From IMG/VR virus record IMGVR_UViG_3300044984_003188: a DNA stretch of 64,000 nt. The stretch is one strand, 5' to 3'. The number at the start of each line of letters is the position of its first letter. The stretch's first letter is position 1. The stretch is from a virus. Position numbers and translations under genes: made by a program. This document shows positions 7,063-30,760 of this stretch, one piece after another. The notes beneath the pieces were generated by a model. The model searched no databases and was not told the origin of the DNA. It saw nothing but the letters and a program-made list of their open reading frames with translations.

Positions 7063-7128
7063 AAGTTGTGGTATTAAGCGAAAATCAATTGACAGCTGAT
7101 TATATCCATGGTATACTATCTTAGTTAA

Positions 7129-7219
7129 GGGCGTGAGGGCTGGTGCTCACCAGGAGCTTATACCTCCTTAGGCAGCTGATTACTGTTGGGATAGGGTTCA
7201 ATTCCCTACGTGCCTACCA
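7129..7219 (+). tRNA. tRNA-Ile(TAT) with long variable arm and 4-nt D-loop
   Basis: AGGAG-CTTATAC-CTCCT; ~23-nt variable region; TAGGG-TTCAATT-CCCTA; ACCA end. Confidence 0.75.
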
Positions 7220-24190: not shown

Positions 24191-24265
24191 GCGCCTATAG
24201 CTTAACAGTAAAGCCGACAGCTCATAACTGTCTTGATCTCCGGGCAGAACGGGGTGGGCGCACCA
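24191..24265 (+). tRNA. tRNA-Met/Ile2(CAT)
   Basis: GACAG-CTCATAA-CTGTC; atypical T-loop GGCAGAA; ACCA end. Confidence 0.85.
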
Positions 24266-24677: not shown

Positions 24678-25364
24678 ATGTTTTATACTATCTATAAAAT
24701 TACTAATAAAATTAATAACAAATATTATGTAGGTAAACATCAAACCAAAAATTTAGATGATAATTATATGGGTTCTGGTAAACTTATCAAAGCAGCCATT
24801 AAAAAACATGGTAAAGAAAACTTTAAAAAAGAAATATTACATATATTTGATAATGAATTAGAAATGAATACCAAAGAAAAAGAATTGGTTGTAGTAAGTG
24901 AATCAACTTATAATCTTATTGAAGGTGGTAAGGGTGGGTTTAGTTACATTAATAAAAATAATCTTAAATTACCACTTAATGAAAATAGCAAACAAAAAAT
25001 AGCAAATACTGTCAGAGAACATTGGCAAAATGGTGTTTATGAAAAAAATAAACAAAAGTTAATTAAACAAAATAGAACAATAAAGAAATCTACAAATTTT
25101 TCAATTAATAAATCTATACTTAAAAAAGCATTAGAACAAGCACAATCTCCCAATGCTGTTATGAAAAGAAAACAGACTTTTATAGAAAATAAACATCAAC
25201 AAGGATCAAAAAATTCTCAGTTTAATACCTGCTGGATTAATAATGGTTTTGAAAATAAAAAAATTAAAAAAGATCAACTTGAAATTTATCTTGAACAAAA
25301 CTGGATAAAAGGTAGGTTGATCCTTCAAAAGGAAATATATTATGGAAGATATGAAGTTTTGTAA
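24678..25364 (+). mobile_element. Seg-like GIY-YIG homing endonuclease
   Basis: YTIYKITNKINNKYYVGKH, YMGSG. Confidence 0.92.
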
Positions 25365-25563
25365 AGATTGTAAATTTGAAAAGCGTGATCCTATGTCTTA
25401 TATTCCTATTTTAGGGATACCATTTAAAAAGTATTCTAAGTGTGGTCATCCGAAATTTGTGGAGATTGATTCAGTTACAGGTCGAAGTGCTTACAATTCT
25501 TATTGTGCCGTTATTAGAATATTTAAATGTGGTGATGAAGCCAAATACTTTGAACCAAAATAA
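25342..25563 (+). CDS. Small Cys-rich hypothetical protein
   Basis: CKDC...C...C...CG pattern. Confidence 0.65.
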   Translation: MEDMKFCKDCKFEKRDPMSYIPILGIPFKKYSKCGHPKFVEIDSVTGRSAYNSYCAVIRIFKCGDEAKYFEPK

Positions 25564-25622
25564 TGGTTGACAAGCACTAAAGCCTAATATATAATCCACT
25601 TATACAATGAATGAGGTGAAAA

Positions 25623-25979
25623 ATGAGTCGAGGTCGAGTTAATACCTTTTGTGTTGAGCCTTTCAATAACAGCTTTGAGCAGGAAGTAAAGCCTGGAAAT
25701 AAGGTTGTCTTTGCCGCAACTTCTTGGAAACGTACACGACTTGAAGAAGGCATTTTTAATGGTGTAAATAAGAATAAGTCTGGGCAGATTCAATCCGTTC
25801 GAGTTTCTTATCCTATTATCAAGTATGTGCCAAATGGCAAGACTGAGTCTACCACATATCAGCGATATAACTATCAAACACGAAGGTATGAAGAAGTTAC
25901 CTATAATCGGATGCTTTTTGATGAAGTGCCAGGTACAGGGCATTCTACTCTTCAACTAATGCGTGTGTTTAAGATCTAA
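25623..25979 (+). CDS. Hypothetical protein
   Basis: GAGG SD; TTGACA/TATAAT promoter upstream. Confidence 0.7.
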   Translation: MSRGRVNTFCVEPFNNSFEQEVKPGNKVVFAATSWKRTRLEEGIFNGVNKNKSGQIQSVRVSYPIIKYVPNGKTESTTYQRYNYQTRRYEEVTYNRMLFDEVPGTGHSTLQLMRVFKI

Positions 25980-25990
25980 TAATACAATTA

Positions 25991-26581
25991 AGGATTTGTT
26001 TCAGCAACTAAAAAAGTTTTTATTGGAAAAAACAAAAACACACCAATCCGAAAAAATCTATTGACATTGACATAAATCTGGTATATAATACGCTTATAAA
26101 TTAAGGAATAAGGGTTGGGTTCAGCCTATAAAAGCTAATCCAAACAGCAACCAAGTCCAACCCGCTAACTTATAGATTCGTTTCAGCAATCAAATAGCAA
26201 TTGACCTTGTAAATCAAAACTGCAAAAAAAAGCGAATCTGATATCTAAAGGATGTTTTCAGCAAACCAAATAGTAGCTCATCGGTAGAGCAAAGTGTCCT
26301 CAAAACACCTGGTAGTTGGTTCAAATCCAACCTAAAAAAACAACATTCTGCTATCTTCTAAGAATAAAGAATAGTTACAGCAACATAAAAATCTTCTCTT
26401 TGAACAAGAACCGTGGTCGTTCGATTCGACCGTTGCGAGGCTGGTGCCAGGAAAAGCATGCTATTCTGTTATCTTACTTAAGATTAACTTCCGCTAAAAA
26501 CAATCTCCAGTCACTTTTTGTGATATCAAAGAACCCAACGATCTGGGCGCAGGTGTGATAACTTGCAGATCGGTTAATCTG
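25991..26581 (+). ncRNA. Array of six Y-RNA-like stem RNAs with CAGCAA motif and tRNA-fragment inserts
   Basis: Units 25991-26050, 26111-26164, 26174-26240, 26249-26350, 26368-26468, 26481-26581; each has a covarying terminal stem then (T/A)C(A/C)GC. Confidence 0.75.
26061..26089 (+). promoter_or_regulatory. Consensus sigma70 promoter inside the RNA array
   Basis: TTGACA-17-TATAAT. Confidence 0.85.
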
Positions 26582-26601
26582 TCAATGAAAGGAACTATAT
26601 T

Positions 26602-28029
26602 ATGAACGCTTTTGCTAAAGCTGCTCTCAATCAAACTACTCGTACCACAAACGGTATGAAGGCTCTAAAGAGCACAACCAATCCATGTGTTGATCTATTC
26701 TATAAGATCGGTGCTTCACGTGGTAAGAATATCCTACCAGACTTTATTGCAGCATATGTTCAAGATAAGGAACTTGCTTGCCGTATTGCTCTATGGGCTC
26801 GTGATATTCGATCCGGTGCAGGTGAACGTGAAATTTTCCGTTCTATTCTTGCATATGTCTCTGATAACGATCCAAATATGGCTTCTCGTCTAGTACTTCG
26901 TGTACCAGAACTTGGGCGTTGGGATGACGTATTCTCTACTTCTGGTGAAGCACGTAATATTGCTATTGGAATGGTTCGACGTGCTCTTGCAACACGTGAT
27001 GGTCTAGCTGCAAAGTGGATGCCACGTAAGGGACCAATTGCTATTGAACTTCGTAATGCTCTAGGTTTCACTCCTAAGCAGTACCGTAAGACTCTAGTCA
27101 ATCTCTCTTCTGTTGTTGAGAGCCAGATGTGCGCTAAAGATTGGGATTCTATCAACTTCAATCATGTCCCATCTGTTGCTTCTGCTCGCTATAAGAAGGC
27201 CTTCAACCGTAATACTACCAAGTATAAGGAATGGACATCAAAGCTTGTCAGCACTGATCCTAAGGTTCGTGAAGAAGTCAAGATCAATGCTGGTGCAGTC
27301 TATCCTTATGATGTACTCAAGGGTAAGATTAGTCACTATCGGACTTCAGCTGGGTACTCTCAAGCAGAACTAAATGCTGTTCGGGCTCAGTGGGAAGCAC
27401 TACCAAACTATATGAATGGTTCAAACGTTCTTCCTCTGGTTGACGTTTCTGGATCCATGACATGCCCAGTTGGTGGTTCTAGCACCACATCTTGCCTTGA
27501 TGTGGCTGTTTCTCTTGGTCTGTATTGTGCTGATAAGAATACTGGGGACTTTAAGGACATGTTCCTTACATTCTCTAGTCAACCAGAACTACTAACTCTT
27601 CGTGGTAATATCCTACAGAAGATTGATCAGATGATTAAATCTTCATGGGCTATGAGCACCAACATTGTTGCCGCAATGGATCTAATCCTTCACACTGCAG
27701 TCAATGGTAATGTGCCACAGGAGGATATGCCTTCCACTCTTCTTATTCTTTCAGACATGCAGTTTAATCAATGCGCTCGCTTTGATGGCTCTGCTATGGA
27801 AACATTCCGTCGCAAGTTTACAGATGCCGGTTATACAATGCCAAAGATTGTTTTCTGGAATCTAAATTCACACGACAATGTTCCTGTAAAGGAAAATGAG
27901 AATGGTGTGGCTCTAGTCTCTGGTTTCAGCCCATCTATCCTCAAGTCTATTCTGGCTTCCGATCTAGAACAGTTTACACCAGAGGCAATGATGATGAAGA
28001 CCCTTATGGCTGAAAGGTACAATTTCTAA
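26602..28029 (+). CDS. DUF2828-family TROVE/Ro60-like protein with C-terminal vWA domain
   Basis: ARDIRSGAGER, ELGRWDD, LAAKWMPR; MIDAS-like VDVSGSM, ILSDMQF, IVFWNL, VSGFSP. Confidence 0.85.
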   Translation: MNAFAKAALNQTTRTTNGMKALKSTTNPCVDLFYKIGASRGKNILPDFIAAYVQDKELACRIALWARDIRSGAGEREIFRSILAYVSDNDPNMASRLVLRVPELGRWDDVFSTSGEARNIAIGMVRRALATRDGLAAKWMPRKGPIAIELRNALGFTPKQYRKTLVNLSSVVESQMCAKDWDSINFNHVPSVASARYKKAFNRNTTKYKEWTSKLVSTDPKVREEVKINAGAVYPYDVLKGKISHYRTSAGYSQAELNAVRAQWEALPNYMNGSNVLPLVDVSGSMTCPVGGSSTTSCLDVAVSLGLYCADKNTGDFKDMFLTFSSQPELLTLRGNILQKIDQMIKSSWAMSTNIVAAMDLILHTAVNGNVPQEDMPSTLLILSDMQFNQCARFDGSAMETFRRKFTDAGYTMPKIVFWNLNSHDNVPVKENENGVALVSGFSPSILKSILASDLEQFTPEAMMMKTLMAERYNF

Positions 28030-28215
28030 TGAATATTGTACTTGTTGTCTCTATGTTAATCGGTGGGGTTCCTACGGGCTCCCCGATTAATCTACAGAGC
28101 ACTAGCCCTGATTGCAGAGATGAGATAAATATGGTTGAGCATATGAATAGCGTATTTCAGAAGCATAAGTCTGAAATTCAATATAAGATTATAGAGTGTA
28201 AAAAGACTTAATACT

Positions 28216-28290
28216 ATCAGTGTGGTGTAGCGGTAACATGCCGGTCTCCAAAACCGTGCGTCCTGGGTTCGAATCCTAGCACTGGTGCCA
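28216..28290 (+). tRNA. tRNA-Trp(CCA)
   Basis: CT-CCA-AA loop; GCCA end. Confidence 0.92.
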
Positions 28291-28361
28291 AACTTTTTGA
28301 TTGACAACCACCACAGGTGGTATATAATATACATATAAATTGTTTCTTAGGAGTTAAGAAC

Positions 28362-29357
28362 ATGAAAACATTAGGCGTATTCATTGGGCGTTTTCAGCCC
28401 TTACATGAAGGTCATATTCAGGCAATCAAGGTTGCCGCTAAGCAAGTAGACCTTCTTCTGGTCCTTATCGGTTCGGCTAATCAGTGCCGTAGCATTAAAA
28501 ATCCATGGACCTATTCAGAGCGAGTTCAGATGTTCCATTCAAAATGGGAACAGATTGACAATCTGATTGACATTCTTCCCCTTAATGACTATCAATACTC
28601 CCATACTCAGTGGATGGCAGATGTACGTGCAAGCGTAGAGTATACCCAAAAGAATTGGGGCATCTATTCACCACCGACTCTTTTTGGTCACACAAAAGAT
28701 GGTAATGACTATCTTAACTGGTTTCCAGATTGGAACTTCAAAAATATTGAAGCCGAATATACAGTAAATGCTACATCTATTCGTGCAAAGATGTTTGCAG
28801 AACATGATAAGCGTATGCCGGAAACGGTCTATCAAGATCATCTGTTCTATAAGAAAGAACAAGAACTGTTTGCAAACTATCCATTCCCTGATACTCTCAA
28901 CTTCAACTGCTCTGATGCTGTTCTAGAATGTCAGGGTCATGTTCTTCTAATCCAACGTAAGTTTGCTCCAGGTGCTGGATGTTGGGCTCTACCAGGTGGA
29001 TTTAGAAATAATAAAGAAACTTTTCTTGATTGTGCTATTCGTGAACTTCAAGAAGAAACAAATGTTCGAGTACCAGAAAAAGTTCTTCGTGGCTCTATTG
29101 TCAAGACTCAACTTTTTGATTCACCGTCTCGATCATTTGGCTTGCTAAGGAATACATTAGCAGTCTATATGAGGATCAGTCCAAATCCAGACTATTCTCT
29201 ACCACGAGCAAATGGCGCCGATGATGCTGCACTATGTAAATGGGTGCCACTCACTGATGCTCTTAATACATATGAGCTCTATGATGACCATGCTGCTATT
29301 ATCTCTACTATGACTGGTGTTATGCCAATGCCAGCTTTTACCAAACTTAAGAAATAA
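28362..29357 (+). CDS. Bifunctional NMN adenylyltransferase/Nudix hydrolase (NadM-Nudix, NatV)
   Basis: GRFQPLHEGH; Nudix box GGFRNNKETFLDCAIRELQEETN. Confidence 0.93.
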   Translation: MKTLGVFIGRFQPLHEGHIQAIKVAAKQVDLLLVLIGSANQCRSIKNPWTYSERVQMFHSKWEQIDNLIDILPLNDYQYSHTQWMADVRASVEYTQKNWGIYSPPTLFGHTKDGNDYLNWFPDWNFKNIEAEYTVNATSIRAKMFAEHDKRMPETVYQDHLFYKKEQELFANYPFPDTLNFNCSDAVLECQGHVLLIQRKFAPGAGCWALPGGFRNNKETFLDCAIRELQEETNVRVPEKVLRGSIVKTQLFDSPSRSFGLLRNTLAVYMRISPNPDYSLPRANGADDAALCKWVPLTDALNTYELYDDHAAIISTMTGVMPMPAFTKLKK

Positions 29358-29374
29358 GATAAGGAGTTTATCTA

Positions 29375-30760
29375 ATGACTATTCTAAAAAATATTCTACT
29401 TAATGTTGACAGCTATAAAGTTTCAATGTTTGAACAATACCCAGAAGGGACTGAAATTGTTCACAGCTACATTGAATCACGAGGTGGTGAACATCTAGAA
29501 ACTTTATTCTTTGGTCTACAGGGTTTCATTAAAGATTATCTTCTAACGCCGGTGACAATGGCAGACATTGATCTAGCAGAAGAAATTATGCAAGCCCATG
29601 GTGAACCATTTAATCGTGTTGGTTGGGAATATATTGTTACCAACCACGGTGGTAAACTACCAGTCCATATCCGTGCAGTTCCAGAAGGTACTATTGTTCC
29701 TGTAAGTAATGTTCTACTTACTATTGAAAATACAGATCCAAATTGTTTTTGGTTGACAACACATTTGGAAACAGCTCTGCTTCGTGCAATTTGGTATCCT
29801 ACAACTGTAGCAACCAACAGCAAAGCCATCAAGAATCTAATTAAAGGATTCTTAGAAAAGAATGGTGATCCTGCTGGACTTAGCTTTAAACTTCATGACT
29901 TCGGTGCACGTGGTGTTTCAAGTCAAGAATCCGCTGGAATTGGTGGTGCTGCGCATCTAATTAATTTCATGGGTACTGATACCATTGCGGGTATTCTTTG
30001 GGCTCGTGAGCATTATAATGCAGGCATTGCTGGTTTCTCTATTCCAGCCGCAGAACACAGCACAATTACTAGTTGGGGTCGCCCATATGAAGTAAAAGCA
30101 TATGAAAATATGCTGAATAAGTTTGCCAAGCCTGGTGCTATTCTTGCTGTTGTGAGTGATAGTTATGATGTATTCAATGCAGCAGAAAATCTCTGGGGTG
30201 GTGAGCTGAAACAAAAGATCATCGACTCTGGTGCTACTCTGGTTATTCGACCAGATTCTGGTGAACCGGTTGCTGTAAATTGTAAACTTATTCAGCTCCT
30301 AGATAAGAAATTTGGCTCTACAGTAAATGATAAGGGATACCGAGTCCTGAATAATGTTAGATTAATCCAGGGTGATGGGGTCAATTATAACACAGTCAAG
30401 GATATCCTTACTGTCTTTGATAATAACGGCTACTCTGCTGATAATATTGCTTTTGGTATGGGTGGTGCTCTTCTTCAACAGGTGAATAGGGATACACAGA
30501 AATTTGCAATGAAATGCTCTGCTGTGCGAATCGGTAAACATGATTGGAGAAAAGTTCTAAAGGATCCTATTACCGATTCAGGTAAGAAAAGCAAAGCAGG
30601 TCTACTTGAACTGTGGCGTAAAGATAATAAATTTGCCACAAGTGAAACAACACCTGAATTACTCAATGGTTGGAAACATGGACTTGAAACCGTTTACCTT
30701 AATGGTAAACTAATCCGTGATATGACTTTTGAGGAAATTAGGAACAATTCAAATAGCTAA
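29375..30760 (+). CDS. nadV: Nicotinamide phosphoribosyltransferase
   Basis: DSYK, LHDFGARG, IPAAEHS, VIRPDSG, IQGDG. Confidence 0.95.
   Translation: MTILKNILLNVDSYKVSMFEQYPEGTEIVHSYIESRGGEHLETLFFGLQGFIKDYLLTPVTMADIDLAEEIMQAHGEPFNRVGWEYIVTNHGGKLPVHIRAVPEGTIVPVSNVLLTIENTDPNCFWLTTHLETALLRAIWYPTTVATNSKAIKNLIKGFLEKNGDPAGLSFKLHDFGARGVSSQESAGIGGAAHLINFMGTDTIAGILWAREHYNAGIAGFSIPAAEHSTITSWGRPYEVKAYENMLNKFAKPGAILAVVSDSYDVFNAAENLWGGELKQKIIDSGATLVIRPDSGEPVAVNCKLIQLLDKKFGSTVNDKGYRVLNNVRLIQGDGVNYNTVKDILTVFDNNGYSADNIAFGMGGALLQQVNRDTQKFAMKCSAVRIGKHDWRKVLKDPITDSGKKSKAGLLELWRKDNKFATSETTPELLNGWKHGLETVYLNGKLIRDMTFEEIRNNSNS

What the first reader, a model, noticed from the sequence alone, without database searches (positions are those of the whole stretch)
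25991..28029. Array of six CAGCAA stem RNAs displaying tRNA fragments, directly upstream of a Ro60/TROVE-like protein
Seen: the ~600-nt gap before the DUF2828-vWA gene is six units of one design: AG-start, a 6-9 bp terminal stem, (T/A)CAGC(A/C) just inside the 5' strand, an A-rich linker, a variable insert, and the closing strand ending C(T/C)G. The stems differ in sequence but always pair (GGATT/AATCC, GGGTTGG/CCAACCC, AGATTCGT/GCGAATCT, AGGATGTT/AACATTCT, AGAATAGT/GCTATTCT, AGATTAAC/GTTAATCT), which is covariation; unit 6 has the variant TCCGCT. The inserts look like tRNA pieces: anticodon-like loops AT-TGG-AA (Pro), AT-CCA-AA (Trp), CT-TGT-AA (Thr), CT-TTG-AA (Gln) and GT-GAT-AA (Ile), some on imperfect stems. 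Unit 4 holds D, anticodon and T arms without an acceptor stem; unit 5 has a perfect T arm (GGTCG-TTCGATT-CGACC). A consensus sigma70 promoter at 26061 precedes units 2-6 and the gene. Established: Ro60 proteins (TROVE plus vWA) bind Y RNAs encoded next to them, and bacterial YrlA RNAs are tRNA mimics. Inference: a phage ribonucleoprotein system in which one Ro-like protein binds a constant handle and presents a library of tRNA mimics, for example as decoys for host anticodon nucleases or as adaptors in tRNA repair/decay. I do not know of a description of such a multi-cargo array.
Basis: partly seen in the sequence, partly recalled or inferred. Interest (0 to 1): 0.92.

Follow-up and report, generated by a model that had tools for sequence, protein, structure and literature searches.

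The report
Phage Ro60-like protein, six partner RNAs
An uncultured lake-water phage carries six small RNA genes that share one conserved "handle" but hold different tRNA-like inserts, placed just ahead of a gene for a ring protein that folds like the RNA-binding protein Ro60. The same RNA-protein pairing recurs in very different phages and is in no RNA catalogue or paper I could find.

Summary
A covariance model of the handle alone finds exactly six units in the 64-kb window. All lie on the + strand in 25989-26584 (E 1.6e-11 to 1.8e-3; next hit E 0.84).

Each unit has a closing stem of about 7 bp, a single-stranded (U/A)C(A/C)GC(A) box after the 5' strand, a variable insert, the 3' strand and a G.

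- **Protein:** the gene at 26602-28029 (Pfam DUF2828 + DUF7788) models with confidence (pLDDT 89). Its 12 best PDB matches are all Ro60 proteins.
- **Co-occurrence:** 54 of 56 distinct related metagenomic phage loci have units upstream on the gene's strand. Eight of 10 cultured phages with the gene have model hits, and the other two show the handle by eye. Five phages without the gene have none.
- **Catalogues:** no Rfam family reaches threshold. The handle differs from YrlA's and resembles Dictyostelium Class I RNAs below threshold.
- **Reading:** this is most likely a Ro60/Y-RNA-type particle with a new handle and a multi-cargo array. Binding and function are inferred. The only functional data are that the Bas63 homologue, gp130, counters the Ppl defence, and it did so without phage RNAs.

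This scan has reported the same system many times on other DNA. I class it as a new variant of a known kind.

The parts
25991..26051 (+). Unit 1. The handle stem is GGAUUUG/CCAAUCC with one mismatch, followed by the UUCAGCAA box. The cargo is a hairpin with a 7-nt AUUGGAA loop. It lies upstream of the 26061 promoter, directly after ORF 25623-25979.
   Evidence: R1 gives 32.7 bits, E 3.2e-6. An orthologous unit follows the orthologous ORF in L001. The cargo loop is conserved in L024, L027 and L002.
26061..26089 (+). Consensus sigma-70-type promoter, TTGACA-17-TATAAT, ahead of units 2-6 and the gene.
   Evidence: It is a 12/12 match. A similar promoter sits ahead of the array in L001, L003, L005, L014 and L020. 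Contigs from RNA libraries begin at 26130 (weak evidence).
26111..26165 (+). Unit 2. The stem is GGGUUGG/CCAACCC and the box is the UUCAGCC variant. The cargo is short and has no convincing tRNA feature.
   Evidence: R1 gives 26.5 bits, E 1.4e-4. See also the fold. The orthologue in L001 has the consensus box.
26174..26240 (+). Unit 3. The stem is AGAUUCG/CGAAUCU plus G, with the UUCAGCAA box. The cargo hairpin has a CUUGUAA loop on an imperfect stem.
   Evidence: R1 gives 52.7 bits, E 1.6e-11, but this unit was in the training set. In the L001 orthologue the loop is CUGUUAA on a clean stem.
26249..26350 (+). Unit 4. The stem is AGGAUGUU/AACAUUCU plus G, with the UUCAGCAA box. The cargo is a tRNA-like core with D, anticodon and T arms (26271-26334) and no acceptor stem. 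The anticodon position reads UCA, and position 33 is not U.
   Evidence: R1 gives 23.6 bits, E 8e-4. Rfam tRNA positions 5-66 score 35.1 bits. ARAGORN does not call it. The fold shows a cloverleaf core. A compensatory U-A to G-C change is seen against L001.
26368..26468 (+). Unit 5. The stem is AGAAUAG/CUAUUCU plus G, with the UACAGCAA box. The cargo holds a canonical T arm (GGUCG, UUCGAUU, CGACC) plus further hairpins.
   Evidence: R1 gives 38.0 bits, E 1.3e-7. L001 shows compensatory changes at two stem pairs.
26481..26581 (+). Unit 6. The stem is AGAUUAAC/GUUAAUCU plus G and the box is the UUCCGCU variant. The cargo is three hairpins. The unit ends 6 nt before the Shine-Dalgarno sequence.
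   Evidence: R1 gives 22.3 bits, E 1.8e-3. The fold has z = -2.7. In 48 of 56 related loci a unit ends within 25 nt of the start codon.
26588..26593 (+). Shine-Dalgarno sequence (AAAGGA) of the Ro60-like gene, 8 nt before the ATG.
   Evidence: Read directly from the sequence. The same GAAAGGA follows the last unit in many relatives.
26602..28029 (+). Ro60-like protein of 475 aa: an N-terminal helical-repeat ring (Pfam DUF2828) and a C-terminal vWA domain (DUF7788) with a complete MIDAS motif.
   Evidence: Pfam hits are at E 2.5e-21 and 4.9e-46. The AlphaFold2 model has pLDDT 89.1 and pTM 0.88. Foldseek ranks 1-12 are all Ro60 proteins, E 2.3e-8 to 4.5e-6, TM up to 0.64. D281, S283, S285, T353 and D385 are invariant in 69 sequences.

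Best explanation
The six units are genes for small non-coding RNAs that partner the Ro60-like protein encoded just downstream. Together they would form a Ro60/Y-RNA-type ribonucleoprotein.

**Shown**
- The units form one RNA family. Each has a covarying closing stem of about 7 bp that joins the 5' and 3' ends, a conserved single-stranded CAGCAA-type box next to the 5' strand, and a conserved 3' G.
- The family is genetically tied to the DUF2828 gene, on the same strand, across phages of unrelated hosts.
- The protein is predicted with confidence to have the Ro60 ring-plus-vWA fold.

**Inferred**
1. The handle (stem plus box) is the protein's docking site, as the terminal stem and its 5'-strand motif are for Ro60 on Y RNAs (about 0.75).
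2. Units 2-6 are transcribed with the gene from the 26061 promoter and cut out of the precursor. The conserved U-rich 5' flank and G(U)U 3' flank would be the processing sites (about 0.6).
3. The last handle, which abuts the ribosome-binding site, also lets the protein repress its own translation (about 0.35).
4. The variable inserts are effector modules, as in Y RNAs. They include a tRNA core without an acceptor stem, a T arm and anticodon-arm-like hairpins. They would bring tRNA-binding host or phage factors to the ring, or divert them from real tRNAs, in the conflict over tRNAs between the phage and host defences (about 0.35). I cannot decide between decoy and tether.
For: **RNA family**
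- R1 finds six hits in the window and nothing else.
- It finds 114 hits in 51 loci, all on the gene's strand.
- The half-site test gives 163/267 against 11 expected upstream, with no excess elsewhere.
- The strict finder gives 227 units in 103 kb upstream, 49 in 405 kb elsewhere and 24 on the opposite strand.
- Four of the seven stem pairs show double changes.
- Stems are entirely different yet still paired in phages of Salmonella, Mycobacterium, Listeria, Campylobacter, Staphylococcus and Vibrio, while CAGCAA is kept.

**Linkage**
- 54 of 56 distinct loci have units, and in 48 of 56 a unit abuts the start codon.
- Eight of 10 cultured phages with the gene have model hits on the gene's strand.
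- The other two show clear handles by eye next to the gene.
- None of five large phages without the gene has a hit.

**Protein**
- It has a Ro60 fold and an invariant MIDAS motif.

**Link to Y RNAs**
- Some units in relatives carry the YrlA-type module (T arm, closed acceptor hairpin, D arm) on this handle. L020:2399-2502 scores 39.1 bits against YrlA, and Silverleaf L093:3020-3128 scores 39.8 bits.

**tRNA features in the cargo**
- There are 81 tRNA-type 7-nt-loop hairpins against 27.7 +/- 5.1 in shuffles.

**Published precedent**
- Ro60 binds adjacent Y RNAs with tRNA-like domains (PMC4201824).
- The Thermus phage phiLo Ro60 binds two upstream Y-like RNAs (PMC12135203).

**Transcription (weak)**
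- Contigs from four freshwater RNA libraries in three studies cover 26130-28033, and one spans units 5-6 and 850 nt of the gene.
Against: - No binding data exist for this protein subfamily with these RNAs.
- The protein does not match Pfam TROVE by sequence, and a profile search against PDB Ro60 chains gives only E about 0.2.
- The handle box is not the GNCGAA or GGUCCGA motif of known Ro60 ligands.
- In some cultured phages the units lie 10-50 kb from the gene (nt-1 and Ochrobactrum phage OC), so adjacency is not universal.
- Bas63 gp130 is a homologue (E 6e-89). It countered the Ppl defence when expressed alone from a plasmid or from T7 (PMC11482910). At least that activity therefore needs no phage-encoded RNA.
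- The RNA-library contigs cannot show discrete small RNAs, their ends or their strand, and DNA carry-over is not excluded.
- The cargos are not copies of the phage's own tRNAs, and those of units 2 and 6 have no recognisable tRNA feature.
Confidence: 0.75

Rival explanations
1. The units are cis-acting elements of the gene's mRNA leader. They would be operator sites or stabilisers through which the protein, or another factor, controls expression of the DUF2828 gene. On this view they are not free-standing trans-acting RNAs.
For: - A unit ends within 25 nt of the start codon in 48 of 56 loci.
- In L008/L009 a unit encloses the Shine-Dalgarno sequence and the ATG.
- One RNA-library contig runs from unit 5 into the gene.
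- No terminator separates the array from the gene.
Against: - Units also lie downstream of the gene (Staphylococcus phage SEP9, RSP15, Felixounaviruses, Silverleaf), between tRNA genes, or 10-50 kb away.
- Unit 1 sits in another transcription unit.
- Arrays of up to 8 units with diverse, conserved cargos are more than an operator needs.
- This could be an added role of the last unit rather than the whole story.
Confidence: 0.1
2. The handle is a processing or recognition signal for a factor other than the DUF2828 protein, such as a host RNase or a tRNA-maturation or modification enzyme acting on phage tRNA operons. The link to the gene would then reflect a shared pathway or co-transcription rather than direct binding.
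For: - In relatives the units are interleaved with tRNA genes.
- The flanks of the units are conserved.
- gp130 works without phage RNAs against Ppl (PMC11482910).
Against: - tRNA-rich phages without the gene (T4, T5, S-PM2, phiKZ, SPO1) have no such units.
- The units follow the gene across hosts as different as Mycobacterium, Listeria, Campylobacter and cyanobacteria, whose RNases differ.
- The architecture (terminal stem plus a single-stranded motif on the 5' side) is that of known Ro60 ligands (PMC4201824).
Confidence: 0.1
3. The units are decaying tRNA pseudogenes or repeats with no function of their own.
For: - Some cargos are partial tRNAs.
- Unit content differs between the window and its closest relative, L001.
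Against: - The handle is not a tRNA feature.
- It is conserved, with compensatory changes, across protein divergence down to about 33% identity.
- The units are strictly strand-specific.
- Cargo types are conserved between contigs whose proteins are 61% identical.
Confidence: 0.02

Closest known systems
Bacterial and phage Ro60 (Rsr, TROVE + vWA) with YrlA/YrlB Y RNAs (Chen et al. 2014, PMC4201824; Rfam RF02553)
   Same: - A ring protein with the Ro60 fold and a MIDAS-bearing vWA domain.
- Small RNAs encoded next to it on the same strand.
- Each RNA is a terminal stem joining its two ends, with a conserved motif on the 5' side and a variable module.
- That module is often a tRNA mimic. Relatives of this window even carry the YrlA-type order of T arm, closed acceptor hairpin and D arm.
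   Different: - The protein belongs to Pfam DUF2828/DUF7788 and not to TROVE by sequence.
- The handle box is (U/A)C(A/C)GCA(A) rather than GNCGAA.
- No window unit matches RF02553 even at E 10, and relatives reach 39-40 bits against a gathering score of 69.
- There are arrays of 2-8 units with many cargo types, including bare anticodon-arm-like hairpins and a tRNA core in the normal arm order, rather than one or two RNAs.
Thermus phage phiLo Ro60 with Yrl1 and Yrl2 (PMC12135203; PDB 9KOP, 9L5Y)
   Same: - A phage-encoded Ro60-fold protein, at Foldseek rank 3 and rank 11 for this model.
- Y-like RNAs encoded upstream of the gene.
- A proposed role in hijacking host RNA enzymes to evade defence.
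   Different: - The phiLo RNAs were identified through the CGAA motif and number two.
- They have been shown to bind the protein and host PNPase.
- Here the motif, the protein subfamily and the number and variety of RNAs all differ, and nothing has been shown biochemically.
Dictyostelium Class I RNAs (Rfam RF01414; Kjellin et al. 2021, PMC7919456)
   Same: - The design is the same: a short stem joining the 5' and 3' ends, a conserved motif directly after the 5' strand whose Rfam consensus ends in UACAGCAA, a variable A/U-rich remainder, and a 3' end reading CUG.
- The length is 42-65 nt, like units 1-3.
- RF01414 is the only non-tRNA family that Rfam repeatedly proposes for these units.
   Different: - Scores are 18-23 bits against a gathering score of 41.5.
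- Class I RNAs are eukaryotic, have their own upstream promoter element, are reported to bind an RRM protein (Rnp1A), and are described as unique to Dictyostelia.
- I did not test whether dictyostelids have a DUF2828 homologue.
Bas63 gp130, a Ro60-like counter of the Ppl defence (PhageMaP preprint, PMC11482910)
   Same: - bas63_0130 is a homologue of the window protein (E 5.7e-89, 43% identity).
- Handle units of the Felixounavirus type lie in the tRNA array just downstream of it.
   Different: - The authors guessed that some annotated tRNAs might be Y RNAs. The candidates seen here are instead unannotated units between the tRNA genes.
- gp130 acted alone in T7, so the role of the RNAs is open.
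- The window phage is a different, T4-like lineage, and its protein is 38-43% identical to Felixounavirus homologues.

Membership tests
Ro60 / TROVE protein family | Fold: a ring of helical (HEAT-like) repeats followed by a vWA domain | tested here: met
   The model has pLDDT 89.1 and pTM 0.88. Foldseek ranks 1-12 are Ro60 chains aligned over the whole length, E 2.3e-8 to 4.5e-6, TM up to 0.64. The next hits are vWA domains only, at E 2e-3 or worse.
Ro60 / TROVE protein family | Sequence match to the Pfam TROVE domain (PF05731) or to solved Ro60 proteins | tested here: not met
   Pfam reports only DUF2828 and DUF7788 at E <= 0.01. phmmer against the PDB finds no Ro60. A 69-sequence profile reaches Ro60 chains only at E about 0.2, over the MIDAS region.
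Ro60 / TROVE protein family | MIDAS motif (DxSxS...T...D) in the vWA domain | tested here: met
   D281, S283, S285, T353 and D385 are invariant in 69 aligned homologues.
Ro60 / TROVE protein family | Binds Y RNAs on the outer surface of the ring | not testable with these tools
   This is inferred only, from gene-RNA linkage.
YrlA (Rfam RF02553) | Score at or above the Rfam gathering threshold (69 bits) | tested here: not met
   The window gives no hit even at E <= 10. Related units score 39.1 bits (L020) and 39.8 bits (Silverleaf).
YrlA (Rfam RF02553) | GNCGAA(N)G motif near the 5' end (PMC4201824) | tested here: not met
   The conserved box is (U/A)C(A/C)GCA(A).
YrlA (Rfam RF02553) | tRNA-like module in the order T arm, closed acceptor hairpin, D arm | tested here: not met
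   No window unit has this order. Unit 4 has the normal order D, anticodon, T. The order is present in relatives.
YrlA (Rfam RF02553) | Encoded within a few kb of a Ro60 gene on the same strand | tested here: met
   All six units lie within 611 nt upstream of the gene on the + strand.
Dictyostelium Class I RNA (Rfam RF01414) | Score at or above the Rfam gathering threshold (41.5 bits) | tested here: not met
   Units 1, 3 and 4 score 23.1, 20.7 and 18.3 bits. L026:1514-1567 scores 20.6 bits.
Dictyostelium Class I RNA (Rfam RF01414) | A short stem joining the 5' and 3' ends, with a conserved motif directly after the 5' strand and a variable remainder | tested here: met
   The Rfam consensus aligns ACAGCAA and the terminal CUG to the phage unit.
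Dictyostelium Class I RNA (Rfam RF01414) | Eukaryotic gene with the DUSE promoter element about 60 nt upstream, and a length of 42-65 nt | tested here: not met
   The context is a phage with sigma-70-type promoters. Units 4-6 are about 101 nt long.
tRNA (Rfam RF00005) | Complete cloverleaf with an acceptor stem | tested here: not met
   Unit 4 matches model positions 5-66 only, at 35.1 bits. ARAGORN makes no call there. The terminal helix is the family handle, separated from the tRNA core by the box.

The most novel reading that the evidence does not exclude
The CAGCAA-handle RNAs would be the cognate ligands of a second, very widespread branch of the Ro60 family (DUF2828), found in hundreds of cultured phages. 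On this reading the array is a programmable library of tRNA and anticodon-arm mimics that the ring presents in order to neutralise or redirect host factors that target tRNAs. The same handle-protein pair would also underlie the unexplained Class I RNAs of Dictyostelium.
Probability: 0.12. Interest if true: 0.9.

Novelty: new variant of a known kind. Interest (0 to 1): 0.72.

Why it matters
- **Wider family.** Ro60/Y-RNA particles are known from animals, some bacteria and a few phages, and their functions are only partly understood. This locus belongs to a much larger family that appears to be undescribed. Homologues of the protein are in 710 cultured phage records. These include Felixounaviruses, Listeria and Campylobacter phages of genera I know to be used in biocontrol, and Vibrio and mycobacteriophages.
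- **Concrete candidates.** The partner RNAs have gone unannotated between tRNA genes. Knowing the handle gives candidates for the RNAs of Bas63 gp130, a proven counter-defence protein.
- **A direct experiment.** The handle makes it possible to test how phages use tRNA mimics.
- **Dictyostelium.** It also offers a testable hypothesis for what reads the conserved motif of Dictyostelium Class I RNAs.

Tried and rejected
**Sequence and family searches that gave nothing useful**
- NCBIfam and phmmer against the PDB were uninformative for the protein.
- The ESM Atlas returned only DUF2828 virus clusters and nothing on eukaryotic relatives.
- No whole genome is held for this window.
- The window has no close nucleotide relative among cultured phages.

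**Limits of model R1**
- R1 is specific to this clade. On Felixounavirus Mushroom it scores only 13.9 bits (E 0.04), and on Mycobacterium phage Silverleaf it finds nothing.
- Both phages nevertheless show clear handles by eye.
- R1 counts therefore understate the range of the family.

**Ideas tested and dropped**
- The 60-aa ORF that overlaps the gene's stop codon (28029-28211) was tested as a possible third component. It is conserved only in L001, so I rejected it.
- The cargos were compared with the phage's own 25 tRNA and tRNA-like genes. Only generic T-loop matches appeared, so they are not recent copies.
- An alternative pairing of unit 1 with 26072-26080, which would enclose the promoter, was considered. 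The L001 orthologue supports the shorter form.
- The simple stem-picking scripts mis-assign some stems (window units 1 and 4, L105, L111), and I ignored those rows.

**RNA libraries**
- Nothing covered 25500-26129 or 28034-28400 in the four runs laid.
- That is not evidence of absence, and unit 1 therefore has no expression support.

**Literature**
- A search for DUF2828 found only plant and tardigrade papers.
- The original pull-down paper on Class I RNAs (Avesson 2011) is not in the library, so I could not check the other three Class I-binding proteins.

**Caveat**
- The 100% pairing follows partly from how the units were selected. The unbiased test is.
Full report
**Context**

The window comes from an uncultured lake-water phage of T4-like type. 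It has a family-B DNA polymerase, 24 tRNA genes, a GIY-YIG endonuclease and auxiliary metabolic genes. No whole genome is held for it, and it has no close nucleotide relative among cultured phages.

**The observation**

The 611-nt gap before the gene at 26602-28029 contains six units of one design. Each unit has these parts:
- a closing stem of about 7 bp that joins its two ends;
- a single-stranded box, (U/A)C(A/C)GC(A), directly after the 5' strand;
- an A-rich linker and a variable insert;
- the 3' strand, followed by a G.

I built a covariance model, R1, from the handle only. The training set was 37 short units, 36 of them from other contigs. With filters off, R1 finds exactly six matches in the window, all on the + strand between 25989 and 26584. 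E-values run from 1.6e-11 to 1.8e-3, and the next hit in the whole window has E 0.84.

Units 1 and 2 use a variant closing in which the 3' strand ends CC-G and the first A is unpaired. Unit 1 has one mismatch that is a clean pair in its L001 orthologue. The promoter at 26061-26089 is a perfect 12/12 consensus.

**Is it more than chance, and does it travel with the gene?**

A scan of viral contigs returned 80 loci whose protein is 60-86% identical to the window's.
- A strict pattern-plus-pairing finder counts 227 units in the 103 kb upstream of these genes on the coding strand. It counts 49 in the other 405 kb and 24 on the opposite strand.
- An unbiased test fixes only the 5' half-site and asks whether a matching 3' strand follows. 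It gives 163 of 267 upstream against 11 expected from shuffling, and 37 of 664 against 28 elsewhere.
- R1 gives 114 matches in 51 loci, all on the gene's strand.
- Of 56 distinct loci with enough upstream sequence, 54 have at least one unit, and in 48 a unit ends within 25 nt of the start codon.
- Four of the seven handle pairs show double compensatory changes. The units in that alignment were selected for pairing, so this count is supportive only.

In cultured phages the pattern is the same.
- All five isolates first tested that encode a homologue have R1 matches on the gene's strand: Synechococcus phage BUCT-ZZ01, Ralstonia phage RSP15, Ochrobactrum phage OC, Stenotrophomonas phage DLP6 and Vibrio phage nt-1.
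- Three of five more distant isolates also have matches, all directly beside the gene: Listeria phage LMTA-34, a Campylobacter Fletchervirus and Staphylococcus phage SEP9.
- The remaining two, Felixounavirus Mushroom and Mycobacterium phage Silverleaf, escape R1 but show unmistakable handles next to the gene when read directly.
- Five large phages without the gene (T4, T5, S-PM2, phiKZ, SPO1) have no match.

Across these phages the stems are wholly different in sequence but always pair, while CAGCAA and the trailing G persist.

**The protein**

Pfam assigns DUF2828 and DUF7788, not TROVE. An AlphaFold2 model built from 69 homologues is confident, with pLDDT 89.1 and pTM 0.88.

Its twelve best Foldseek matches in the PDB are all Ro60 proteins: Xenopus, human, Deinococcus Rsr and Thermus phage phiLo. 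They align over the full length, with E from 2.3e-8 to 4.5e-6 and TM up to 0.64. After them come only isolated vWA domains.

The MIDAS residues are invariant. Sequence-level links to Ro60 are not significant. The protein therefore has the Ro60 fold but belongs to a separate sequence family. Homologues occur in 710 cultured phage records, and some are already annotated 'Ro-like RNA binding protein'.

**The cargo**

- **Unit 4** is a tRNA core with D, anticodon and T arms (Rfam tRNA positions 5-66, 35.1 bits). It has no acceptor stem, and the family handle takes that place.
- **Unit 5** has a canonical T arm.
- **Unit 1** has a hairpin with an AUUGGAA loop that is conserved in contigs whose protein is only 61% identical.
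- **Unit 3** has an anticodon-loop-like CUUGUAA on an imperfect stem.
- **Units 2 and 6** show no convincing tRNA feature.

Family-wide, 7-nt-loop hairpins with the tRNA loop signature are three times as frequent as in shuffled inserts: 81 against 27.7 +/- 5.1.

Some units in relatives carry the YrlA-type module on this handle. They score 39-40 bits against Rfam YrlA, where the gathering score is 69. This ties the family functionally to Y RNAs. The cargos are not recent copies of the phage's own tRNAs.

Array content turns over quickly. The closest relative, L001 (86% protein identity), has two extra units within the main array. Its unit-1 orthologue sits about 900 nt further upstream, behind the orthologous ORF.

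**Expression**

Contigs from four freshwater RNA libraries, from three studies, cover 26130-28033. This corresponds to the predicted transcription unit from just after the promoter to the stop codon. One contig spans units 5-6 and the first 850 nt of the gene. This is weak evidence. Contigs cannot show RNA ends, strand or discrete small RNAs, and DNA carry-over is possible.

**Comparison with what is known**

The principle is published. Ro60 proteins bind Y RNAs encoded beside them, bacterial and phage YrlA RNAs mimic tRNA (PMC4201824), and the Thermus phage phiLo Ro60 binds two upstream Y-like RNAs and host PNPase (PMC12135203).

What differs here is:
- the protein subfamily;
- the handle, which has a CAGCAA-type box rather than GNCGAA;
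- the arrays of up to eight units;
- the range of cargos.

No Rfam 15 family reaches its gathering score on these units. The literature searches found no description of the RNA family.

The only non-tRNA family that Rfam keeps proposing is Dictyostelium Class I RNA, at 18-23 bits against a gathering score of 41.5. Its consensus has the same layout, including ACAGCAA and the terminal CUG. Those RNAs are reported as unique to Dictyostelia (PMC7919456). This is a lead and does not establish membership.

One functional datum exists for the protein family. Bas63 gp130 counters the Ppl defence (PMC11482910). I confirmed that it is a homologue (E 5.7e-89) with handle units in the tRNA array just downstream. 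It did so even when moved alone into T7 or onto a plasmid, so that activity does not need the phage RNAs.

**Verdict**

The six units are real and belong to a widespread RNA family tied to a Ro60-fold protein. The best explanation is a Ro60/Y-RNA-type particle with a new handle and a multi-cargo array (about 0.75). Processing from a common transcript, autoregulation through the last unit and a role in tRNA-centred conflict are inferences of decreasing strength.

The scan has already reported this same system on many other genomes. My tests here were run independently and agree with those reports.

Noticed in passing
window 24191-24262 (+): A tRNA-like gene matches the full Rfam tRNA model (38 bits), but ARAGORN does not call it. 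Its T arm is atypical and its anticodon loop reads CUCAUAA. It lies directly after the PstS-like gene.
   Followed up: no
window 28317-30760 (+): An NMNAT-Nudix fusion (28317-29357) and a NAMPT (29375-30760) form a phage NAD+ salvage pair. They sit just downstream of the Ro60-like gene and tRNA-Trp (28216-28290), behind another perfect sigma-70 promoter at 28301.
   Followed up: partly
window 24678-25364 (+): A GIY-YIG / SegE-like homing endonuclease gene lies between tRNA-Leu(CAA) and the ORF that precedes unit 1.
   Followed up: no
window 7127-7219 (+): tRNA-Ile(UAU) is 93 nt long, which is unusual for this tRNA and might mean an insertion or an intron.
   Followed up: no
L008/L009 2705-2769: In these relatives a handle unit encloses the Shine-Dalgarno sequence and start codon of the Ro60-like gene itself, which suggests translational autoregulation.
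   Followed up: partly
L001 2590-2870: The closest relative (86% protein identity) has two extra units inside the array. One has a T arm followed by a D-arm-like and an anticodon-arm-like segment. These units are absent from the window, so cassettes are gained and lost quickly.
   Followed up: partly
L092 (Listeria phage LMTA-34) 4350-4503: An RtcB-type 'tRNA-splicing ligase' gene lies 1.3 kb downstream of the DUF2828 gene, which links this locus to RNA repair in that phage.
   Followed up: no
L098 (Bas63, MZ501086) record 82239 and 82781: Handle units of the Felixounavirus type lie in unannotated gaps of the tRNA array downstream of gp130. One overlaps the small annotated reverse-strand ORF bas63_0137, which may therefore be a mis-annotation.
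   Followed up: partly
window 26441-26453 (unit 5): The segment GCUGGUGCCAGG is conserved in L001, and 9 of its nucleotides are identical to the 3' end (with CCA) of the phage's tRNA-Trp gene. The meaning is unknown.
   Followed up: no
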